From the NCBI RefSeq assembly GCF_009914755.1, contig NC_060927.1: 64,000 nt of DNA; one strand, written 5' to 3'. Position 1 is the stretch's first letter; every line of letters begins with the position of its first letter. Positions 27,140-54,221 of this stretch are shown here, in pieces. The position numbers and the translations under genes are program-made. The stretch is from the human T2T-CHM13v2.0 reference genome, Homo sapiens. The notes below the pieces were generated by a model. It had not been told where the DNA came from and ran no database searches. It was given only the letters and a program-made list of their open reading frames with translations.

Positions 27140-29076
27140 GTGAGGTTTCTCTGGGCTCCGCCTCTCACCTCCAGACCGCTGCTAGCGGGCGCGGGAGGGG
27201 CCAGGGCAGCGGTGGGCGTGTCCCCTTGTTCAAGTTAAACTCTCTGGAAATAGAGTCCCATTCAAATCCAGGCCTTACCTGCAGAGGGGAAATGAGCCTT
27301 GGTCTTGGGGGTTACTGGGAGTGTACCCCGCTTGGCAGAGACACGTGTTTAATTCGCTGGGGACTTCAGAAACTTTTTAGACGAGGAGTGAAGACATCCA
27401 CTGCTCTGATGCCCCATCCCCTCTAGTGCCCACTTCCCTTGAGCCACCCTTTTTGCTGCCTCCATTCCCACTTGTCTGTCGAAATGGATTGGGTGTCTTC
27501 CGTTCTCTCTGTCCGGCAGCCACTCTGGACGCCTCGTACTTCTCGTTTACAATGTTTCCTAAAAGGGACATGGTCAATGGAGGCTGGAATAGCTGAGAAG
27601 GGTTTATTTCCACCCCTCTAAGCTGTGAGCTAGGATAAGGCTATCATTGGAAGCATCCAGCAGGGCTTCTGCACTCGGCTGTAACTTCCTGCCTTGCCCT
27701 TCGCTGTGGATGGGGCCTGGGTGAATGGGCCTGGCTGGCAGAGTGGGAGAGGGTCTTGAAATGAGGGTGAGTGGAGAAGGGCAACTGAACGGGGAGCCAA
27801 GTGGTGTAATCTTGGCCTCTGGCGAGCACTGGGCTGGTTCTTTTTCTAGTGGAAAGTGCAGCCAGGTTTATTTCCTTCAGGGCTGTGGCAGGACTCTTTA
27901 TCCAAGTTGGGGAAGAAAATCTGGGAACAGCGGTCCTACTGACTGCCATTGCTGAAGACTCTTTGTAGATGCTTCACGGCAGATTGGAAGGAAACCGCCT
28001 AAGCAGTTGGACGTATAAAACCAGCCTTTAGTTGGTGGTTTTTCCTCATAATGGCTGTTTTGTGTGTGAGCATAGATTGTGTGTGTTGGGGGCTGGGGGT
28101 TTTGAGTAATATTGTGTGAAGGGTATTGTTGGTTATGCTCATCAGGGCTTTATCTGCATTCGGCTGAAGGGACCAGTGTTTTACTGGGCAGTCTCTGCTT
28201 TTGCTTCTATAAGCAAATGCTTACACGGCCAGAATGAGGGAATGAGTGTGTGTGTGGAATCCTGAAAGAAATAAATTAACCGGACTGTTTGGAACATTTC
28301 TGATGGTAGCTGATACATAACATTAAATCAGTTTGAGAGAGCGAGGAAAATACCATCTGGAAAAACCCAAATGAGTGCCGTGAAACTCATGTTGCACGAT
28401 TTGGGCCTGTTCTTTTTCAGAGTCAGCAAAAAAGACTTGTAAGGGTGAACGTCCTCAGTAGCTAGCTAGCAGGCACGTGTAAGGGAAAATGTGGGTATGT
28501 GGGAAGAAATGGCTTCACACGTTAATGCTAGAAACAGGTGTGGGCCTGAACCAGCAGGGAAAGGAAGGCTAAATTAAAAAAGTTGTTGTAAAACTTGTAT
28601 ATGGAGCACACACATGCTCTTTGAAATAAACCAGTTAAATAAAATCTGTGAATAAATATATGGAGTTGGCAACATTTCTCTATACTGTTTTCCACAGTTG
28701 TCTAAGGTATTGTCGTCGACATCTGTTGTGTGACTTAAAAGGGCTGCACATTGTTCAGGGCCTTCTCTCTCATTGCTTTTTGTCTTATGTTTTTGCTGGG
28801 GCACCTCACTTCTTACAAGTCTTTGTCGGAAAAAGTTGAAATTGATATGTGAAGACTGCTGTAGCCGTTCTGCCTATCAACTGTCTTCTCTGGATTGTCC
28901 AGAGTTGTTAGAGTTGAAAATATGTCCAGAATCTGCCCGCTTCTTACCACCTCCTCTGCTACCACTTTGGTCCAAGCCACCATCAGCCCTTGCCTGGATT
29001 ATTGCAGTAGTCTTTTAAACTGCAATACCCACATTTAGTGAATTTTCAGTATAGTAGCCACAATGTTCCTGTTAAA

Positions 29077-47652: not shown

Positions 47653-50282
47653 GGATGGCTTAGAAATTCTGGTGTAGGCAGTTTTTGAGGTAACCAGGCT
47701 CAGCTTACTCAGGGCCTAGAGGATAAAGGTGATGATTTTGACTTTTGCAAGCATTGGAAATTAGCATATTATAGTTATCAGAATGGTCATTATTGTAAAC
47801 ATTAACTGAGTACTTGTTGGGATTGCTTGGAATTCTTTTAGAAAGAAGGAGAAAAAGAATTGGTTTCAGTAGGTTCTGTACTTTCAAGTTACATAGCAGA
47901 TAGATCACACAATTTAGTGACAACAGAGCACAAAGAACAATAATAATAACAGTAGCATCTAGCATTTTTAAAGCCCTCTTTACAGATATGCCTTGTGTTA
48001 GTGCTTTAGCCTATCTTTTATATATTTCTATAGTATTCTTACAGATTATACTGGAGTTAAGGAAGGTACCTATGTAATTAAAAAAAATTCTTTCTGTGTT
48101 AGAAAAGTGAAGAAACAGAAACATCAGGAATTAATAATTTACATCTAGGTGAATTATAAACATAGTAAGGCACTTACTATCTACCAGGTACAGTATTTAA
48201 GTGTTTTATATAATATAATTCTAATATGAGGTAGATAGGATCCCATTTTATAAATGAAGAAACTTGTGCTTGTCTGTTTTCTGTCACTTGTCTATCTTAA
48301 GTTACTCAAATAAGGTTGAACCGCGATTCAAACTGAGGACTGTCTGACTTCAAAGCTCACTCTCTTATTCACCATGCTGGCAGTGGTTTCCATGTATTTT
48401 GGTGTTCGGAGGTTTGGAGGGAGAGGCAGGAGTGATCAGGAGTGACAACTTATGTTGATTTTTGAATGGAAAGGAGACTAGGTTTCTTATGAAGTAAAGG
48501 CAGAAGACTCAGGGTGTGGTTGCACATTCAAATCCAAAACAAATAGTTATATCTATTAAAGGTGCTCACAGCATGCCTGTCTGCATAGTCCTTTGTTTCT
48601 AAAGCTGCTTCTGAAGGAGGAAAGGAGGTAGGCTGTGAATCCTCCAAGAAAGGTAGGAAAAGATGGGATGGTGGATACTTAATCATTCACAAGGGTGTGG
48701 TATATAAGTAAGTGGTAGATTTTCCTAATTTCTTATTAATAATCTTCAAATGTTGCTACTTGATGACATCAAGTTGTCTTGTCTACATACCCATCCTTGT
48801 GTTCTACTACTGAACATGAACATGTAGCTCATAACATCTGGATGTTTTTCACTCATCTCTTTTTCCCTCTCTCTTTTTTCTGCTAACCTGACTTGTTGAT
48901 TGCTATTTTTGTGTGTCTTCATAAATTTATAGCCAGTCTGTTCCATTCTGGACTGTTTATCTTTGGCATGCCAGAGGTCTTTAAACATCATAATGTTGTG
49001 TAATGAGCATAACTTCTGCCTTGACTTGTGGGTGTTAAGAGCATTAGTCAGTGCAAAGTATTGAGTTAAATATTTTCAATAAAAGGATATAATGATCTAG
49101 CAGAGAAGAAGTTATAAAAAATCCTAGTTAATGGCTTTAATGGTGAGCCATATATTTAGTGGGTTCTATCAGTGATGAGTTAGAGATTCACAGAATGAAT
49201 GTAAAAGCATTCTTACTTTTAATTAATGAGAGAGGAGAAAGAAAAACAATAATAAGAAAAAAAGGACTTGATTCTCATCCATACCAAGAAAAGTGTAAAC
49301 ATCCAAGTTCCCAGTGATTCTAACCCTGATTCATTACCTTGCATGTGTCTTTAACTACCACAAGAAATGTTTAAGATTTCCATTGAGATATTATCGACAG
49401 GGACTCCTGGGCTGCATCATAAGCCTGATTGAAAGCCTTTAGCCTTGTAATGATCTCTTTTTGGAGGACAATCAGGGAATTCTTTGCACCTTTATCAGAG
49501 AGTCAGGGCTTTCCTGAGCAAACAAACTAGGTCTTTACCTATGGAGCTGATTTTATGAAGAGTTTTGGTCAGCATTAGTCATTGTGAAACCATGGGCCTC
49601 CTGCCCTGGTTTATCTCGACAGTCATCTCCCTACAGCAGAAGATTGAATCCTCATCTCTCCATGAGTCTGAGCATCTAAAGATGTTAGAGGTACATTGGT
49701 TTGATTCTTGCTGGGGAATGTGTAGTGGGTACTGGTCTTCTGGGAATAGTGTCTAGATGAATGTTTAATAATCAGTTTAATAGGTTGATGGGCTGTCTTA
49801 TTTCCTGGGGTTGGAGGTTTAAACCAGGACACCCTGTGCTAACTCTGCTCTTTACCTTGCCAGCAATCCTCAGTCGTCCTGGTAAACAACCTCTGAGTTA
49901 AATACCTTTTCTTTTCTGGAGAGGTTACCAACAAAGGAAAAGGCTTTGATGTCAGAACAGGGGGCATAAACAGTGTTTATGGCTGCTGTTAAAAATTTCT
50001 CATCTGGGTATTTTCAAAAGAATTCCAAGTCAAAATATATCACTTATGGGAAGTATCTTCTTTTCCAATATGATATCTTATGAAGTTGATAATTATTTTC
50101 ATGGTTTAAGTAGTAATTGATGACATTTTGGGGGTTGGAAGATTTGTGGGAAGGAGGACATAGATTTTCATCAGATGTCCTTGCGTCCTTTCCTTGCGAG
50201 GATTATTGATCTCTAGTCTTCATATGTAAGGTGTTGAATTTATTTAATGTTATTAACTGAATCTATAGATAAAGAGGTAGTT

Positions 50283-50700
50283 TTGGAGCCAAGTAACCTG
50301 TTGATGTAAAGTCTATTTTACCTTTTATGATTACCATCTAGCACCTCCCTCCTTCCTGGCTGAATTCCCTGTCATTTTAAGTAGGCAGCAATTACTGGTT
50401 TGCTAAAGAAGCCAGCTCCTGCTGCCAAGGATCCTGTTAATTATCACTCTATCTCTAATTTAGCCTTCCTAGTGTTGAGAGAAGGTGCACGTAAGCGTGT
50501 GGCAGAACGTCTGCAATCGCATCTTTGTAATAATCTCCTTTCTGAGACGGTTCAGTGGACTCAATGTTCCGCCAAAGGGCCAAGGCAGCCCTGGTGAGTG
50601 TTTTCAGCTCTCTTCTGTAGCTTGTTTGGTCAGTCGAGTTTGGTGTGATTGTCCTCTCCTTTTGCTTCTGACCTAAGTAAAAGCTAATGGTTGGCATTAA
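50283..50700 (+). mobile_element. Ancient L2/CR1-clade LINE ORF2 reverse-transcriptase fragment (degenerate)
   Basis: Translation across frameshifts: ILPFMITI / SLLPG*IPCHFK*AAITGLLKKPAPAAKDPVNYHSISNLAFL...VAERLQSHLCNNLL / AKAALVSVFSSLL / LLLL-DLSK. This is colinear with the LINE RT motifs SLSTG-FP--FK-A-V-P-LKK...NYRPIS-L-FL...TETAL--V...LDLS-AFD. Confidence 0.7.
50455..50593 (+). other. MITF: Candidate non-coding alternative first exon just upstream of exon 1C; start approximate
   Basis: Consensus donor CTG|GTGAGT after 50593, 150 nt upstream of the 1C ATG, with local CpG enrichment. Consistent with my recollection of an annotated non-coding first exon near 1C. Confidence 0.55.
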
Positions 50701-50742
50701 TCTTGGGAATTCAGACCTATTCCGCTCCATCTCTGAAGTCAA

Positions 50743-50843
50743 ATGGGACACCTTGAAAATACTTCAGTGGTTTTCCCACGAGCTATTTTCTCTCTCTGTG
50801 AAAAGGAAACCAGGAAATTGACTCTGTGCCTGTTTTCAAGAAG
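50743..50843 (+). CDS. MITF: MITF isoform C, coding part of alternative first exon 1C
   Basis: ATG at 50743 translates as MGHLENTSVVFPRAIFSLCEKETRKLTLCLFSR, the recognised MITF-C N-terminus. The donor AAG|GTAATA (GT at 50844) is phase 2, the same as exon 1A, so it can splice to the same common exon. Confidence 0.92.
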
Positions 50844-53111
50844 GTAATACAGATGATAACCAAAGTACCTCAGTTTACAGGTTCTTATATAGCATGTTTT
50901 TTAAGGGATGTCAATCTTTATATCGTATGAAATCTTTGGTTCTTGTTCATAAATGGCTAGATTGCTTTCTGTTTGTTTTCGGAAATGTTCAGTTCACTTG
51001 TTTCAGTGAACATTTTTTCAGAAGTTCCACTGGATCATTTGATTAGGTTTGGAGTGCTTATGCTTCCTTTTCCACTTTTTATGTTATTTTTGGCAGTGTT
51101 GGTATTTGAAGCTGTAGAAGTGATTCACTGCAAAGTGCATTAATTTTCCACATTTCCAAATGCATTTTCCAGTGGTCCCCAAATTTCTTTTCCTCTTCTC
51201 AGATGATTCTGCAGTTGTCCTTCTGTCATTCTGCTGGCTCAAACATAAATGCTGATGTCACTGAATTTCTTAAATTACAGCTGGTGGGGATTAACAGAAA
51301 TTGTAAAAGAATACCACTTCCTCATTTTGCTATTTTCTTGACTAATTATTGTCTTTTCAAGTACTGTAGGAACATAGGGATTTGAAAATGAATTCTTTGT
51401 CTTGCAGTTTAAACAGCAATTTTCCTTTTCCTTTTTCTGTTATACTTCAAAAATAATGTAGCGCTTAGGATGCTTTTCTGATGTGCCCTTTAATAACCCC
51501 AGACAGAGGAGTCTCACTCCTGATTTTGCACTTTGGACTGTCTTCTACCCTGGGTGAAGGGTTTTGAATACTTCCCTTAAGTAAGTTTCCTTATATAGAA
51601 TATTTTTACTCAACAGTTTTTCTCCGACTCAAGGCCGTTACTGGTATTATGTGAAAGGTTGTGATTAATTTATTTGTTTGTTCAGAGCCTTTGCTCCTTT
51701 AAGGAATGCTTAGCTCTGTCCTCATCATTTTCTTGTTTAGGATCTGTGTTATTTGTGACAATTTTGATTGCTCCAGCCCTCTACACATTAATTTTTCTGG
51801 CTTGCCTCTCCTTGTTTTAACAGTGGGAGTCTGGGCCTCAGGCTTTCTTATCACTTGGTTTGTGGTTTGAGTGATGGTTCCATGAACCTTTTCCTGGGAG
51901 TTCTCTGGGCTCCTGTGCTGGACGCTGGAAGCCATCTGGAAGTGTGCACACAGGATGGCTGGGTGCTGCTGGGTGGTATTGATTGAACTGCAGTCCCGTG
52001 GAAACAGAAATAGAAAGGGTTCAGCATTCCCACTTTCCTCTGGTGGCATTTTTGCTTATTTTGTGTATTTAGAAAAGGTAGCCATATGCAAACTGCTGAC
52101 TTACTATTTTCCCTGGAATGGAAACCATTTGGATTATTTCAATGAGTTTTAGCGAAGATTTGTTTGTTCACAGTATTAGTTTTGTTTTCTGGTAGCCTGT
52201 TTAGAATAAGACCAGAATGTGTCTTTTTACTTTATGGAAATGAGTGCTTACTTGGTGTTTGGAATTTTGCAAACCAACATGAATTTGAAAAGTCATATGT
52301 TTATTCCAGAGTCAAAATAGAAACTCTTTAGTGAAAATTATAGATATTTCCATCTTGGATCATTTACTTTCTGTGAAAAATTTTTTTTTGACAAAATTGT
52401 TTAAGATTTCAGAGGAACCTCTTTTCCTGGTTAATTTTCCCACAAATTAATTTCCCTCATTTTTAAAAAGAAAAATAAGATTAAACTGAAGAATTGCAGA
52501 CCAAGCTCATATGTGCTGGAATATTTGCTGTAAGCTGGTGACTGATTCTTTGCTGTTATCTTTCATAAGAGAGTGGATTTAGTTTAACTGTTAGTAGTTA
52601 AGGTTTGGATTAGGAATACAAATATGATTCCCTTACCATAAGACCTTTTAAGCACTGATTTGCATTGCTGAGGATAAGTTATGATTATTCAGTCTCGGGA
52701 AAATTTGTATTATAAGATCCATATACACTTAGCCAACATTGCCTTCTAACATTGCAATGATAAGTTCTTTTAATTGAGATTTTGGAATGGTATAGCTATC
52801 TGGAAAATATTTCAAATGTCATTGTGGAGCTTTTGGTTAAATGTGAGTTTTAAAAGTTTGATAAATAGAATAAAGAGCGGAAAGGAAAAATAGTTATGAA
52901 TTTGTTGAATTGTTTGGGCTATGAGTTATCTTTTTAAAAAGAGGTTTTATGTTTGTGTAGAAAATGCCACTAAATATAAGAAAATGGAAGTTTAATAGTT
53001 GAACAAGGTAAGAATTGCAGATATCATGAGATTGTAATTTAACTGGAGTATGCATTAAATGAATTGTATATTTCACTAGCTTGGTGACCATGAATGGTTT
53101 TGTTTGTCATT

Positions 53112-53275
53112 TTATCTTTCTTTTCTTTTCTTTCTTTTTTTTTTGAGATGGAGTCTCTTTCACCCAGCAGCACGATCTCAGCTCACTGCAACCTCTGCCT
53201 CCTGGGTTCAAGTGATTCTCCTGCCTCAGTCTCCTGAGTAGCTGGGATTACAGGTGTGCACCACCATGCCCAGCT

Positions 53276-53310
<35 letters not shown>

Positions 53311-53428
53311 TAGAGATGGGGTTTCACCATGTTGGCCAGGCTGGTCTTGAACTCCTGACCTCTAGTGATCTGCCTACTTCGGCCTCCCAAAGTGTTGGGA
53401 TTACAGGCGTGAGCCACCGCACCTAGCC
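53112..53428 (-). mobile_element. AluS with expanded central T-tract and a small deletion
   Basis: Antisense Alu with about 30 T in the linker. Confidence 0.9.
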
Positions 53429-54221
53429 TCTTTATCATTTTGTCTTATCCCAGTAAATACCATCATGCTGGACCTTGTATTAAAAAAATGTTGAATCAAT
53501 GAATGAGTGAATGCACGTTTTGGGAGGCCTGGTTGCAGACCTATCTGTGCTGCTACCTACTCATATGACCCTGTGGGTCTGTCTCCCGCTATATACAATG
53601 AAGGCTAAAGATGGGATCAGGGATAAGTATGTGGGATTGTGTTGCTCCCTCCTTCTGCTGCAGTACGGTAGATATTGCCAACTGTCACTTCACTCTTTCC
53701 TGTGAACCCAGGAGGAGCCTTGGGCCTTTCTGAATTTAGTGCATCAGGCTCCCATGACTCACCGTAGATACAAGAGTTAAAACTTACTGTACCTTCTCCT
53801 TTTGGATTTGGTCCCTGAAGCCCAATTACAAATAGGCAATATTCTATGATGTTTCTTGGTCAGCAGATGTTCATTTAAACAATAGAGACAACAGCATGCA
53901 CCATTATCCCTCCATTCAATAATTTTTCTGGTAGATTTAGCAGATATATTAATAGATAGAACTTAATGAATGGGTCTAGACAGTATTCTTCCAGTGGAGT
54001 AAGATATGAAGATATAATTAGATTAGCAGAGTTTTTCACTTTTACTCTCCAAAGCACATGTCTCCATCTGGGGCACAGTTATGGAGCACCTCCTGTATGC
54101 CAGCACTATGCTACTGATAAATGGCCAGCCTGTAATTCATGGGCTCTGCCTTCTTGTAACTCAAAGTGACATAAGTATGATGCTAGGTCTGTAATTATTC
54201 CTTTAAAGACAAAAGATGGAG

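What the first reader, a model, noticed from the sequence alone, without database searches (positions are those of the whole stretch)
50283..50740. MITF exon-1C promoter region is built from a fossil LINE reverse-transcriptase gene (candidate exaptation)
Seen: the ~450 bp upstream of the 1C ATG translate, across two stops and a few frameshifts, into blocks in LINE RT order. The blocks are ILPFMITI, SLLPG*IPCHFK*AAITGLLKKPAPAAKDPVNYHSISNLAFL, VAERLQSHLCNNLL, AKAALVSVFSSLL and LLLL-DLSK. Known: L2/CR1 ORF2 reads roughly LLP.LT.I.N.SLSTG.FP..FK.A.V.PILKK....NYRPISLLPFLSK.....L..FL..N.LL...QSGFR...TETAL..V.NDL....LLDLS.AFD, and these clades have long been extinct in mammals. Inference: motifs still legible by eye suggest purifying selection. 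The consensus donor after 50593 lies inside the RT 'TETAL' block, so an RT coding fragment may have supplied a promoter and first exon for alternative MITF isoforms.
Basis: partly seen in the sequence, partly recalled or inferred. Interest (0 to 1): 0.8.

Follow-up and report, generated by a model that had tools for sequence, protein, structure and literature searches.

The report
Fossil LINE-2 fragment carrying MITF exon
About 350 bases just upstream of MITF exon 1C are a decayed piece of an ancient LINE reverse-transcriptase gene that now holds a non-coding alternative first exon of MITF, which is a real but ordinary kind of transposon re-use.

Summary
Window 50343-50561 (+), read through two stops, matches real endonuclease/reverse-transcriptase proteins of chordate non-LTR retrotransposons. 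The library-wide phmmer E-values are 5.6e-7 to 9e-4, against 1.84 billion proteins. All 25 of these proteins hit the same spot by tblastn. Two flanking blocks (50306-50338, 50582-50656) are collinear and modestly above chance: 53 and 29 of 2000 shuffles reach the observed score.

The RefSeq alternative first exon 50405-50593 is probably the non-coding exon 1J. It lies wholly inside the fossil, and its GTGAGT donor lies in the weakly supported downstream block.

No RT protein is conserved. The human copy has in-frame stops and frameshifts, and its only ATG is out of the MITF frame.

Nine orthologous pseudo-ORFs from unnamed mammals are 76-77% identical to human in the fossil and exon, against 56-63% in the flanks. 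They were found through the fossil itself, so this comparison is biased.

The copy is preserved about as well as the best human L2 fossils retrieved (1st of 28 by normalised identity, 4th by score), which suggests selection but does not prove it.

This is a new member of a known kind, of modest interest.

The parts
50306..50338 (+). 5' block of the LINE ORF2 fossil (VKSILPFMITI), one base out of frame with the core. It corresponds to the segment just before the RT domain.
   Evidence: Anchored ungapped profile test: 10.9 bits, reached by 53 of 2000 dinucleotide shuffles. The frameshift-aware alignment to P0010 joins it to the core by a 1-nt shift. In orthologue P0004 the block and the core are in one frame.
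50343..50561 (+). Core of the fossil, covering the start of the RT domain (the SL..G.P..FK.A.ITPLLKKP...NYRPISNLPFLSK...HL..N.L part). It has in-frame stops at 50361-50363 (TGA) and 50382-50384 (TAG).
   Evidence: phmmer E 5.6e-7 to 9e-4 to RT proteins, library-wide. The 11 of these proteins that were scanned against Pfam all match RVT_1. All 25 RT proteins hit here by tblastn. Profile score 61.0 bits at 50334-50561. Alignments. A profile of the same proteins aligns this part to human L1 ORF2p residues about 471-628 (PDB 8sxt, 8c8j).
50582..50656 (+). 3' collinear block of the fossil (KAALVSVFSSLL*LVWSVEFGVIVL), in the place of the RT '..TETALL.V.NDLL...' segment and shifted by -1 nt. Support is modest.
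   Evidence: Anchored test: 10.9 bits on the expected diagonal, reached by 29 of 2000 shuffles. Unanchored tests are not significant.
50405..50593 (+). RefSeq alternative first exon of MITF, probably the non-coding exon 1J. It lies wholly inside the fossil. Its single ATG at 50564 (MFRQRAKAAL) ends in phase 0.
   Evidence: Exon coordinates come from the hub's RefSeq table. Exon 1J has no start codon of its own according to PMC6672050 section 5. The name 1J is inferred from the exon's place between 1A and 1C; that order is recalled.
50594..50599 (+). 5' splice site GTGAGT of that exon.
   Evidence: Sequence. The translations of 5 of the 6 orthologous ORFs that cover the site force a GT there (PWWVF in P0002, P0003, P0008 and P0035; ALVSV in P0005). 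The sixth, P0006, is compatible.
50375..50383 (+). A/T-rich TTTTAAGTA, 22-30 bases before the annotated start at 50405. It is a possible TATA-like element formed by the RT codons for F-K. This is inference only.
   Evidence: Sequence. The amino-acid translations across it are unchanged in the 5 orthologous ORFs that cover it (CHFK in P0002, P0004, P0026 and P0035; VILSR in P0003). There are no expression data.
50657..50711 (+). Stretch between the fossil and exon 1C with no detectable RT signal. It holds TAAAAG at -34..-29 and TCAGACC at the annotated exon 1C start.
   Evidence: Anchored test for the next RT motifs: 567 of 1000 shuffles reach the observed score. Sequence.
50712..50843 (+). MITF exon 1C, with ATG at 50743, 33 codons plus 2 nt, and donor AAG|GTAATA. 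It is not shown to be LINE-derived.
   Evidence: Hub table.

Best explanation
Window about 50306-50656 (+) is a decayed fragment of ORF2 of an ancient non-LTR retrotransposon of the L2 type. It covers the end of the linker and the first RT motifs, and it lies in the same orientation as MITF.

The element inserted before the mammals that yielded the orthologous sequences diverged from the human line. It no longer encodes anything RT-like.

Its DNA now carries the annotated start, the whole body and, with weaker support, the 5' splice site of a non-coding alternative first exon of MITF (50405-50593, probably exon 1J). It also makes up positions -406 to -56 of the region upstream of exon 1C.

L2 has no known promoter inside ORF2 (this is recalled). 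The RT-coding DNA was therefore raw material in which a start site and a GTGAGT donor arose or happened to be present. It was not a ready-made regulatory module.

Shown here: the RT origin, the overlap with the exon, and the loss of coding capacity.

Inferred: that the exon is 1J, that the fragment drives transcription, and that it is kept by selection on the DNA or RNA.
For: RT origin:
- Library-wide phmmer E-values are 5.6e-7 to 9e-4 for 25 proteins. The 11 of them scanned against Pfam all match RVT_1, and two also match endonuclease families.
- 25 of 25 proteins hit the same place and frame by tblastn.
- The profile scores 61.0 bits there, against -4.1 for the next best hit in the window.
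- Two flanking blocks are collinear: 53 and 29 of 2000 shuffles reach the observed scores.

L2-like rather than L1:
- This locus scores 65.6-65.7 bits over 76 profile positions.
- 30 L1-type loci score 52-80 bits over 139-197 positions.

Exon inside the fossil: hub RefSeq table.

Non-coding:
- The frame has stops and frameshifts.
- The one ATG ends in phase 0, whereas the exon 1C ORF ends in phase 2.
- Exon 1J has no start codon of its own (PMC6672050 section 5).

Old age and possible constraint:
- Eight of the nine orthologous pseudo-ORFs were aligned (P0007 left out); together they cover 50244-51043.
- Pooled amino-acid identity to human is 76% (110/145) for 50310-50404 and 77% (306/400) for the exon.
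- It is 63% (120/189) for 50594-50711, 58% (104/178) for exon 1C and 56% (86/153) for the intron.
- In each of the 6 ORFs that cover both parts, the core is more conserved than the downstream flank.
- No RT signal is found in the roughly 3 kb downstream, where the more conserved RT motifs should once have lain.
- Normalised preservation ranks 1st of 28 by identity and 4th of 28 by score among the best human L2 fossils retrieved.
Against: - Pfam RVT_1 does not hit the fragment or its orthologues directly.
- The profile used in several tests was built from proteins that were found with this fragment. Only the E-values are free of that circularity.
- The downstream block that contains the donor is weak: p about 0.015 when anchored, and not significant when unanchored.
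- The orthologous ORFs were retrieved by similarity to the core. This inflates core identity relative to the flanks. Their species are unknown, so no neutral rate can be set.
- One orthologue (P0008) shows nearly equal identity in the core (29/41) and the intron (48/66).
- This copy is not better preserved than the best other L2 fossils by score.
- RefSeq lists no promoter or enhancer feature here (hub table), and no CAGE or chromatin data could be consulted.
- Assignment to L2 rather than CR1/L3 rests on a recalled motif (ISNLPFLSK). It was not tested against Dfam or Repbase.
Confidence: 0.65

Rival explanations
1. The L2 fossil is real but is a neutral passenger. Transcription starting in it is weak or incidental. 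Its good preservation reflects a slowly evolving neighbourhood around exon 1C, or sampling bias, and not selection on the fragment itself.
For: - By normalised score, three other human L2 fossils are as well or better preserved.
- The whole 50244-51043 block is alignable in the orthologues. P0008 shows 73% identity (48/66) even in the intron.
- The orthologues were ascertained by the core.
- No RefSeq regulatory feature is listed here (hub table).
- According to PMC6672050 section 5, there is no in vivo evidence that the 5'-untranslated parts of MITF mRNAs have specific roles.
Against: - In 6 of 6 orthologous ORFs that cover both parts, the core is more conserved than the downstream flank.
- The recognisable part of the fossil coincides with the exon plus or minus about 60-100 bp, while the rest of the element is gone.
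- The donor GT is forced in 5 of 6 orthologues.
- A Mitf-J transcript is measured in mouse kidney as well (PMC5746285 passages).
Confidence: 0.3
2. The fragment comes from a different ancient LINE clade (CR1/L3 or a related one) and not from L2 proper.
For: The matching proteins carry no clade names. The protein atlas only says chordate endonuclease/RT proteins. No Dfam or Repbase consensus was available.
Against: - The motif ..NY(H/R)SISNLAFL.. fits the ISNLPFLSK form that 18 aligned library RTs share. I recall this form as typical of L2. The CR1 RTs I recall have a different continuation.
- A second fossil in the window, at 28913-29020, has the LDYC..SLL motif that I recall from L2.
Confidence: 0.1
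3. The RT-like frame still encodes a peptide, either a domesticated RT fragment or a functional upstream ORF product.
For: - In the non-human orthologues the frame is open across the two human stops.
- The ATG at 50564 opens a 10-codon ORF inside the exon.
Against: - The human copy has two in-frame stops and at least two frameshifts.
- Only about 115 residues of a protein of roughly 800-900 residues remain, and the catalytic motifs are absent.
- The ATG at 50564 is out of phase with the exon 1C junction.
- The open frames in other species come from ORF callers run on contigs of about 1 kb.
Confidence: 0.02
4. The resemblance to RT is chance.
For: Pfam finds nothing. Block 5 and the unanchored block 4 are at chance level.
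Against: E-values of 5.6e-7 against 1.84e9 proteins. 25 of 25 RT proteins hit the same site, and no other part of the 64-kb window scores.
Confidence: 0.01

Closest known systems
Transposon-derived alternative first exons and promoters of human genes
   Same: A transposon fragment lying in sense orientation inside a gene supplies the start and body of an alternative, untranslated first exon. Sela et al. 2007 (PMC2394776, passages read) counted 3,686 transposed elements within first exons of human known genes. They also reported MIR, L2 and CR1 exonisation at similar levels in human and mouse.
   Different: Most documented promoter donors are LTRs, Alu elements or L1 5' ends that bring their own promoter (recalled). 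Here the donor is internal RT-coding DNA of a long-dead L2, with no known promoter of its own, and the host is the master regulator MITF.
L2A exonisation in CD274 giving soluble PD-L1 (eLife 2019, PMC6877088; only the search listing and the start of the abstract were seen)
   Same: An ancient LINE-2 fragment inside a gene became part of an alternative transcript.
   Different: There the element changes the 3' end and the protein product. Here it forms a 5' non-coding first exon and does not change the protein.
Ancient repeat fragments under purifying selection near developmental genes (Lowe, Bejerano and Haussler 2007; recalled, not seen here)
   Same: An L2/MIR/CR1-age fragment beside a developmental transcription-factor gene is preserved better than its flanks.
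   Different: Those cases are mostly distal enhancers defined by measured constraint. Here constraint is only suggested, and the fragment overlaps an annotated exon.
Human LINE-1 ORF2p reverse transcriptase (PDB 8c8j, 8sxt, 8uw3)
   Same: A profile of the L2-like proteins that match the fossil aligns to ORF2p residues about 471-628 with E 3e-14. The fossil therefore corresponds to the segment leading into the RT domain and its first motifs.
   Different: The fossil belongs to a different clade, is a fragment of about 115 codons, is broken by stops and frameshifts, and has no catalytic motifs.

Membership tests
Non-LTR (LINE) reverse transcriptase, endonuclease-RT type | Significant sequence similarity to bona fide RT proteins | tested here: met
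   E 5.6e-7 to 9e-4, library-wide; the 11 non-orthologous hits that were scanned all match RVT_1 at E<=0.01, 9 of them above the 29.6-bit cut-off. P0018 and P0025 also match Exo_endo_phos families; 25 of 25 hit the same site.
Non-LTR (LINE) reverse transcriptase, endonuclease-RT type | Direct match to Pfam RVT_1 (PF00078) | tested here: not met
   0 families for four window ORFs at E<=10 and for P0001, P0002, P0004, P0005 and P0035 at E<=10. The fragment overlaps only about the first 45 of 205 model positions.
Non-LTR (LINE) reverse transcriptase, endonuclease-RT type | RT motifs in the right order along one strand | tested here: met
   The core is continuous. The upstream and downstream blocks lie on the expected diagonals: 53 and 29 of 2000 shuffles reach the observed scores. 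The next motif (LLDLSAAFD) was not found: 567 of 1000 shuffles reach the observed score.
Non-LTR (LINE) reverse transcriptase, endonuclease-RT type | Catalytic core (YxDD motif) and the rest of ORF2 | tested here: not met
   No collinear RT hit downstream of 50656 on the + strand at E<1. Downstream tests were negative. This is a fragment, not a gene.
L2 clade specifically | Closer to L2-type chordate RTs than to L1 | tested here: met
   65.6-65.7 bits over 76 profile positions for this locus, against 52-80 bits over 139-197 positions for 30 L1-type loci.
L2 clade specifically | Best match to the Dfam/Repbase L2 consensus rather than to CR1/L3, RTE or others | not testable with these tools
   No repeat library is held. 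The library proteins carry no clade names.
Exapted transposon promoter / first exon | An annotated transcription start and exon inside the transposon fragment | tested here: met
   The RefSeq exon 50405-50593 (hub table) lies within the fossil at 50306-50656.
Exapted transposon promoter / first exon | Conservation above the neutral rate in orthologous positions | tested here: inconclusive
   Identity is 76-77% in the core against 56-63% in the flanks, over 8 orthologous ORFs. The ORFs were ascertained by the core and their species are unknown. Rank among human L2 fossils is 1st by identity and 4th by score, of 28.
Exapted transposon promoter / first exon | Measured promoter activity (CAGE, open chromatin, reporter, deletion) | not testable with these tools
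   No expression or chromatin data are held. The hub lists no RefSeq functional element here.

The most novel reading that the evidence does not exclude
A 350-bp piece of L2 reverse-transcriptase coding DNA has been kept by purifying selection since before the eutherian radiation. It is kept because it is the core promoter, the 5'-UTR exon and the splice donor of the MITF-J transcript, and the distal promoter of MITF-C. On this reading, one of the alternative promoters of this master regulator was born from LINE coding sequence and not from a LINE promoter.
Probability: 0.4. Interest if true: 0.5.

Novelty: new member of a known kind. Interest (0 to 1): 0.33.

Why it matters
MITF has nine or ten alternative first exons, and how they arose is not explained (PMC6672050 section 5). 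If this reading is right, one of them, probably 1J, can be dated and traced to a single L2 insertion.

That gives a concrete and testable example of RT-coding DNA turned into a start site plus splice donor in a key developmental gene. It also gives a defined 350-bp target for deletion experiments on the MITF-J and MITF-C isoforms in kidney, RPE and osteoclasts.

In itself it adds one case to a well-known class. It is probably already visible as an L2 block in RepeatMasker tracks, which I could not consult.

Tried and rejected
- Pfam on the window ORFs and on the orthologous ORFs found nothing.
- A search of the human assembly with the fragment's DNA found only the fragment itself. A search with its translation also found only itself.
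- The assembly cannot be searched with an alignment.
- A search with the L2-like protein P0009 returned L1-type copies among the 150 scored of 19,627 candidates, and this locus was not among them. It gave no neutral L2 sample.
- A degenerate pattern for NYRPISNLPF with up to 3 mismatches gave 161 matches, against 233 for the reversed control. This is no enrichment. Only 1 of the 30 loci fetched (L054) is a real L2 core, scoring 19.4 + 16.1 bits in two frames.
- A C-terminal L2 query gave 45 fossils. None of the 30 loci fetched has a recognisable core. One (L081) has the next RT segment, at 22.5 bits.
I did not pursue it, so the neutral distribution of L2 decay at these ORF2 positions remains open.
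- A search seeded from the intron flank, meant to find orthologues not ascertained by the core, gave one ORF (P0036) that runs downstream only.
- A last search with P0001 added no new orthologue.
- Rfam found nothing real in 49000-52000. The one hit, ZFAT-AS1_3, has E 0.29.
- There is no E-box (CAYGTG) between 49348 and 54054.
- Literature: no paper linking MITF exon 1J or 1C to L2 or any LINE was found in the searches.
- Hershey and Fisher 2005 is not held. The annotated-sequence supplements of PMC6672050 are PDFs that cannot be read. Paper reading closed, before the primer tables of PMC5746285 could be checked. These could have confirmed the name of the exon and its mouse counterpart.

Full report
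**What is in the sequence**

The long block is one frame from 50343 to 50597. It has stops at 50361 (TGA), 50382 (TAG) and 50595 (TGA). I read it through with X as P0001.

**Is it more than chance?**

phmmer of P0001 against 1.84 billion representative proteins gave 33 hits at E<=1e-3. They fall into two groups.

- Eight (P0002-P0008, P0026) are 68-79% identical. They run on into the unique sequence of exon 1C and its intron. They are therefore ORFs called on the orthologous locus of other mammals.
- The other 25 (P0009-P0034 without P0026) are 38-50% identical, with E from 5.6e-7 to 9e-4.
  - I scanned 11 of these against Pfam. All 11 match RVT_1 at E<=0.01, and 9 of them score above Pfam's cut-off.
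  - P0018 and P0025 also match endonuclease families.
  - The protein atlas places P0025 among chordate endonuclease/RT clusters.

tblastn of all 25 against the whole window put every one at 50358/50364 to 50525-50594 in the same frame.

- For 24 of them E was 1.8e-10 to 3.5e-6; for P0010 it was 0.002.
- The only other hit with E<0.01 was at 28913-29020.

A profile of the 25 scored 61.0 bits at 50334-50561. The next best six-frame hit in the window scored -4.1 bits. This profile was built from proteins found with the fragment, so only the E-values are unbiased.

Pfam itself sees nothing in the window ORFs or the orthologous ORFs.

**Extent of the fossil**

Frameshift-aware alignment gives a core at 50346-50555.

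- Upstream: VKSILPFMITI (50306-50338) sits on the expected diagonal. It scores 10.9 bits, reached by 53 of 2000 dinucleotide shuffles.
- Downstream, unanchored: comparisons are not significant (40-196 of 200 shuffles; 107 and 618 of 1000).
- Downstream, anchored: a test restricted to within three codons of the expected diagonal gives 10.9 bits for 50582-50656, against the '..etallkvtndll...' part of the profile. 29 of 2000 shuffles reach this.
- The next RT motif is not there. DLSKS at 50670-50684 is reached by 567 of 1000 shuffles.
- No collinear RT hit exists in the following kilobases.

The demonstrable fossil is therefore about 50306-50656. Exon 1C is not shown to be part of it.

A profile of 18 of the matching proteins aligns to human L1 ORF2p at residues about 471-628 with E about 3e-14 (PDB 8sxt, 8c8j). 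The fossil thus corresponds to the lead-in and first motifs of the RT domain.

**Which LINE?**

This locus scores 65.6-65.7 bits over 76 profile positions. Thirty L1-type loci of the same genome score 52-80 bits over 139-197 positions. It is therefore not L1.

I call it L2 because of the ..NY(H/R)SISNLAFL.. form. I recall this form as L2-like. No Dfam or Repbase library was available, so L2 against CR1/L3 is untested.

**Relation to MITF**

The hub's RefSeq table puts an alternative exon at 50405-50593 and exon 1C at 50712-50843.

- The first exon lies wholly within the fossil.
- Its donor is CTG|GTGAGT.
- Its only ATG (50564, MFRQRAKAAL) reaches the exon end in phase 0. The exon 1C ORF (ATG 50743, 33 codons plus 2 nt) ends in phase 2.
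- All upstream first exons other than 1M give transcripts that include exon 1B1b (PMC6672050 section 5; PMC2869019 passages). The ATG at 50564 therefore cannot be in the MITF frame.
- This fits exon 1J, which has no start codon of its own (PMC6672050 section 5).
- The name 1J is my inference from the exon's place between 1A and 1C; that order is recalled.
- The RT fossil therefore adds no residues to MITF.

MITF-J is reported in osteoclasts, RPE and HeLa cells (PMC9363479, table passage). Mitf-J and Mitf-C transcripts were measured in mouse embryonic kidney (PMC5746285 passages).

Sequence features near the starts are inference only:

- TTTTAAGTA lies at -30 to -22 of the start at 50405.
- TAAAAG lies at -34 to -29 of the start at 50712, with TCAGACC at the start itself.
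- The region is not a CpG island: 8 CpGs and 45% G+C in 50283-50740.

**Is it under selection?**

Selection on the protein is excluded by the stops and frameshifts.

DNA-level evidence from orthologues:

- I had nine orthologous pseudo-ORFs (P0002-P0008, P0026, P0035). All but P0007 are from source 'lgn', on contigs of about 1 kb, with no species given.
- I aligned eight of them (P0007 left out) to the human DNA, allowing frameshifts.

| Segment | Pooled identity to human |
|---|---|
| 50230-50309 | 30/42 (71%) |
| 50310-50404 | 110/145 (76%) |
| exon 50405-50593 | 306/400 (77%) |
| 50594-50711 | 120/189 (63%) |
| exon 1C | 104/178 (58%) |
| intron 50844-51045 | 86/153 (56%) |

- In each of the six ORFs that cover both parts, the core is more conserved than the downstream flank. 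For P0008 the gap is small: 29/41 in the core against 48/66 in the intron.
- Both human in-frame stops are sense codons in every non-human ORF that covers them.
- A GT at the donor is forced by the translations of 5 of the 6 ORFs that cover it, and the sixth is compatible.

Caveats on this evidence:

- The ORFs were found by similarity to the core.
- Alignments in the flanks are broken by more indels.
- Without species names no neutral rate can be set.

Comparison with other human L2 fossils:

- I compared this copy with tblastn matches of P0025 in L2 loci that a genome search with the C-terminal part of P0025 had ranked best.
- For each match I divided its identity and its score per residue by those between the two intact proteins, P0025 and P0010, over the same residues.
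- This locus ranks 1st of 28 by identity ratio (0.81; the others 0.57-0.78).
- It ranks 4th of 28 by score ratio (0.61; the top is 0.78).
- It is therefore about as well kept as the best fossils found, but not beyond them.

The only other cores I could find are weaker:

- L054 scores 19.4 + 16.1 bits in two frames.
- L081 scores 22.5 bits for the next RT segment.

An unbiased sample of L2 copies could not be fetched.

Taken together, the evidence leans towards constraint on the exon and promoter DNA but does not establish it.

**Verdict**

The origin from an L2-type RT gene is secure. The overlap with an annotated non-coding MITF first exon is a fact of annotation.

The step from 'legible' to 'selected' is not justified as argued. 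The promoter role is untested.

Transposon-derived first exons are common: 3,686 transposed elements lie in human first exons according to PMC2394776 (passages). L2 exonisation is also known (PMC6877088, listing only).

My searches found no paper that links MITF exon 1J or 1C to a LINE. RepeatMasker tracks, which I could not see, may already show it.

Noticed in passing
window 28913-29020 (+): A second L2-type ORF2 fossil lies 2.3 kb downstream of exon 1A. It is 33-36 residues long and matches the C-terminal part of P0010 (48% identity, E 0.001-0.003) and of P0025. It includes an LDYC..SLL motif.
   Followed up: partly
window, whole; gap 49348-54054: The E-box CAYGTG occurs 71 times in the window, against 39.1 +/- 6.4 in dinucleotide shuffles. 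None of 100 shuffles reaches 71. There is no E-box within about 1 kb upstream or 3 kb downstream of the L2 fossil and exon 1C.
   Followed up: no
window 50564-50593 (+): The only ATG of the 50405-50593 exon opens a 10-codon frame (MFRQRAKAAL) that runs to the exon end in phase 0. It is out of frame with the exon 1C junction, so it is a possible upstream ORF. The residues are kept in orthologue P0005.
   Followed up: partly
protein P0007 against window 50779-50723 (-) and 50478-50576 (+): A 69-residue protein from an 'ncbi' source joins the antisense translation of exon 1C to the sense L2 core. It then continues with unrelated sequence. It looks like an artefactual gene model.
   Followed up: no
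window 50455-50763 (-): A stop-to-stop open frame of 102 codons lies on the minus strand, across the fossil and the start of exon 1C. It was not examined further.
   Followed up: no
window 50844-51043 (+): The first 200 bases of the intron after exon 1C are also alignable in orthologous ORFs: 48/66 identity for P0008, and 82% for P0036 over 46% of the 74-residue query. The conserved block is therefore wider than the fossil.
   Followed up: partly
window 51756-51831 (-): A weak Rfam match to ZFAT-AS1_3: 19.6 bits against a gathering score of 70, E 0.29. I treat it as chance.
   Followed up: no
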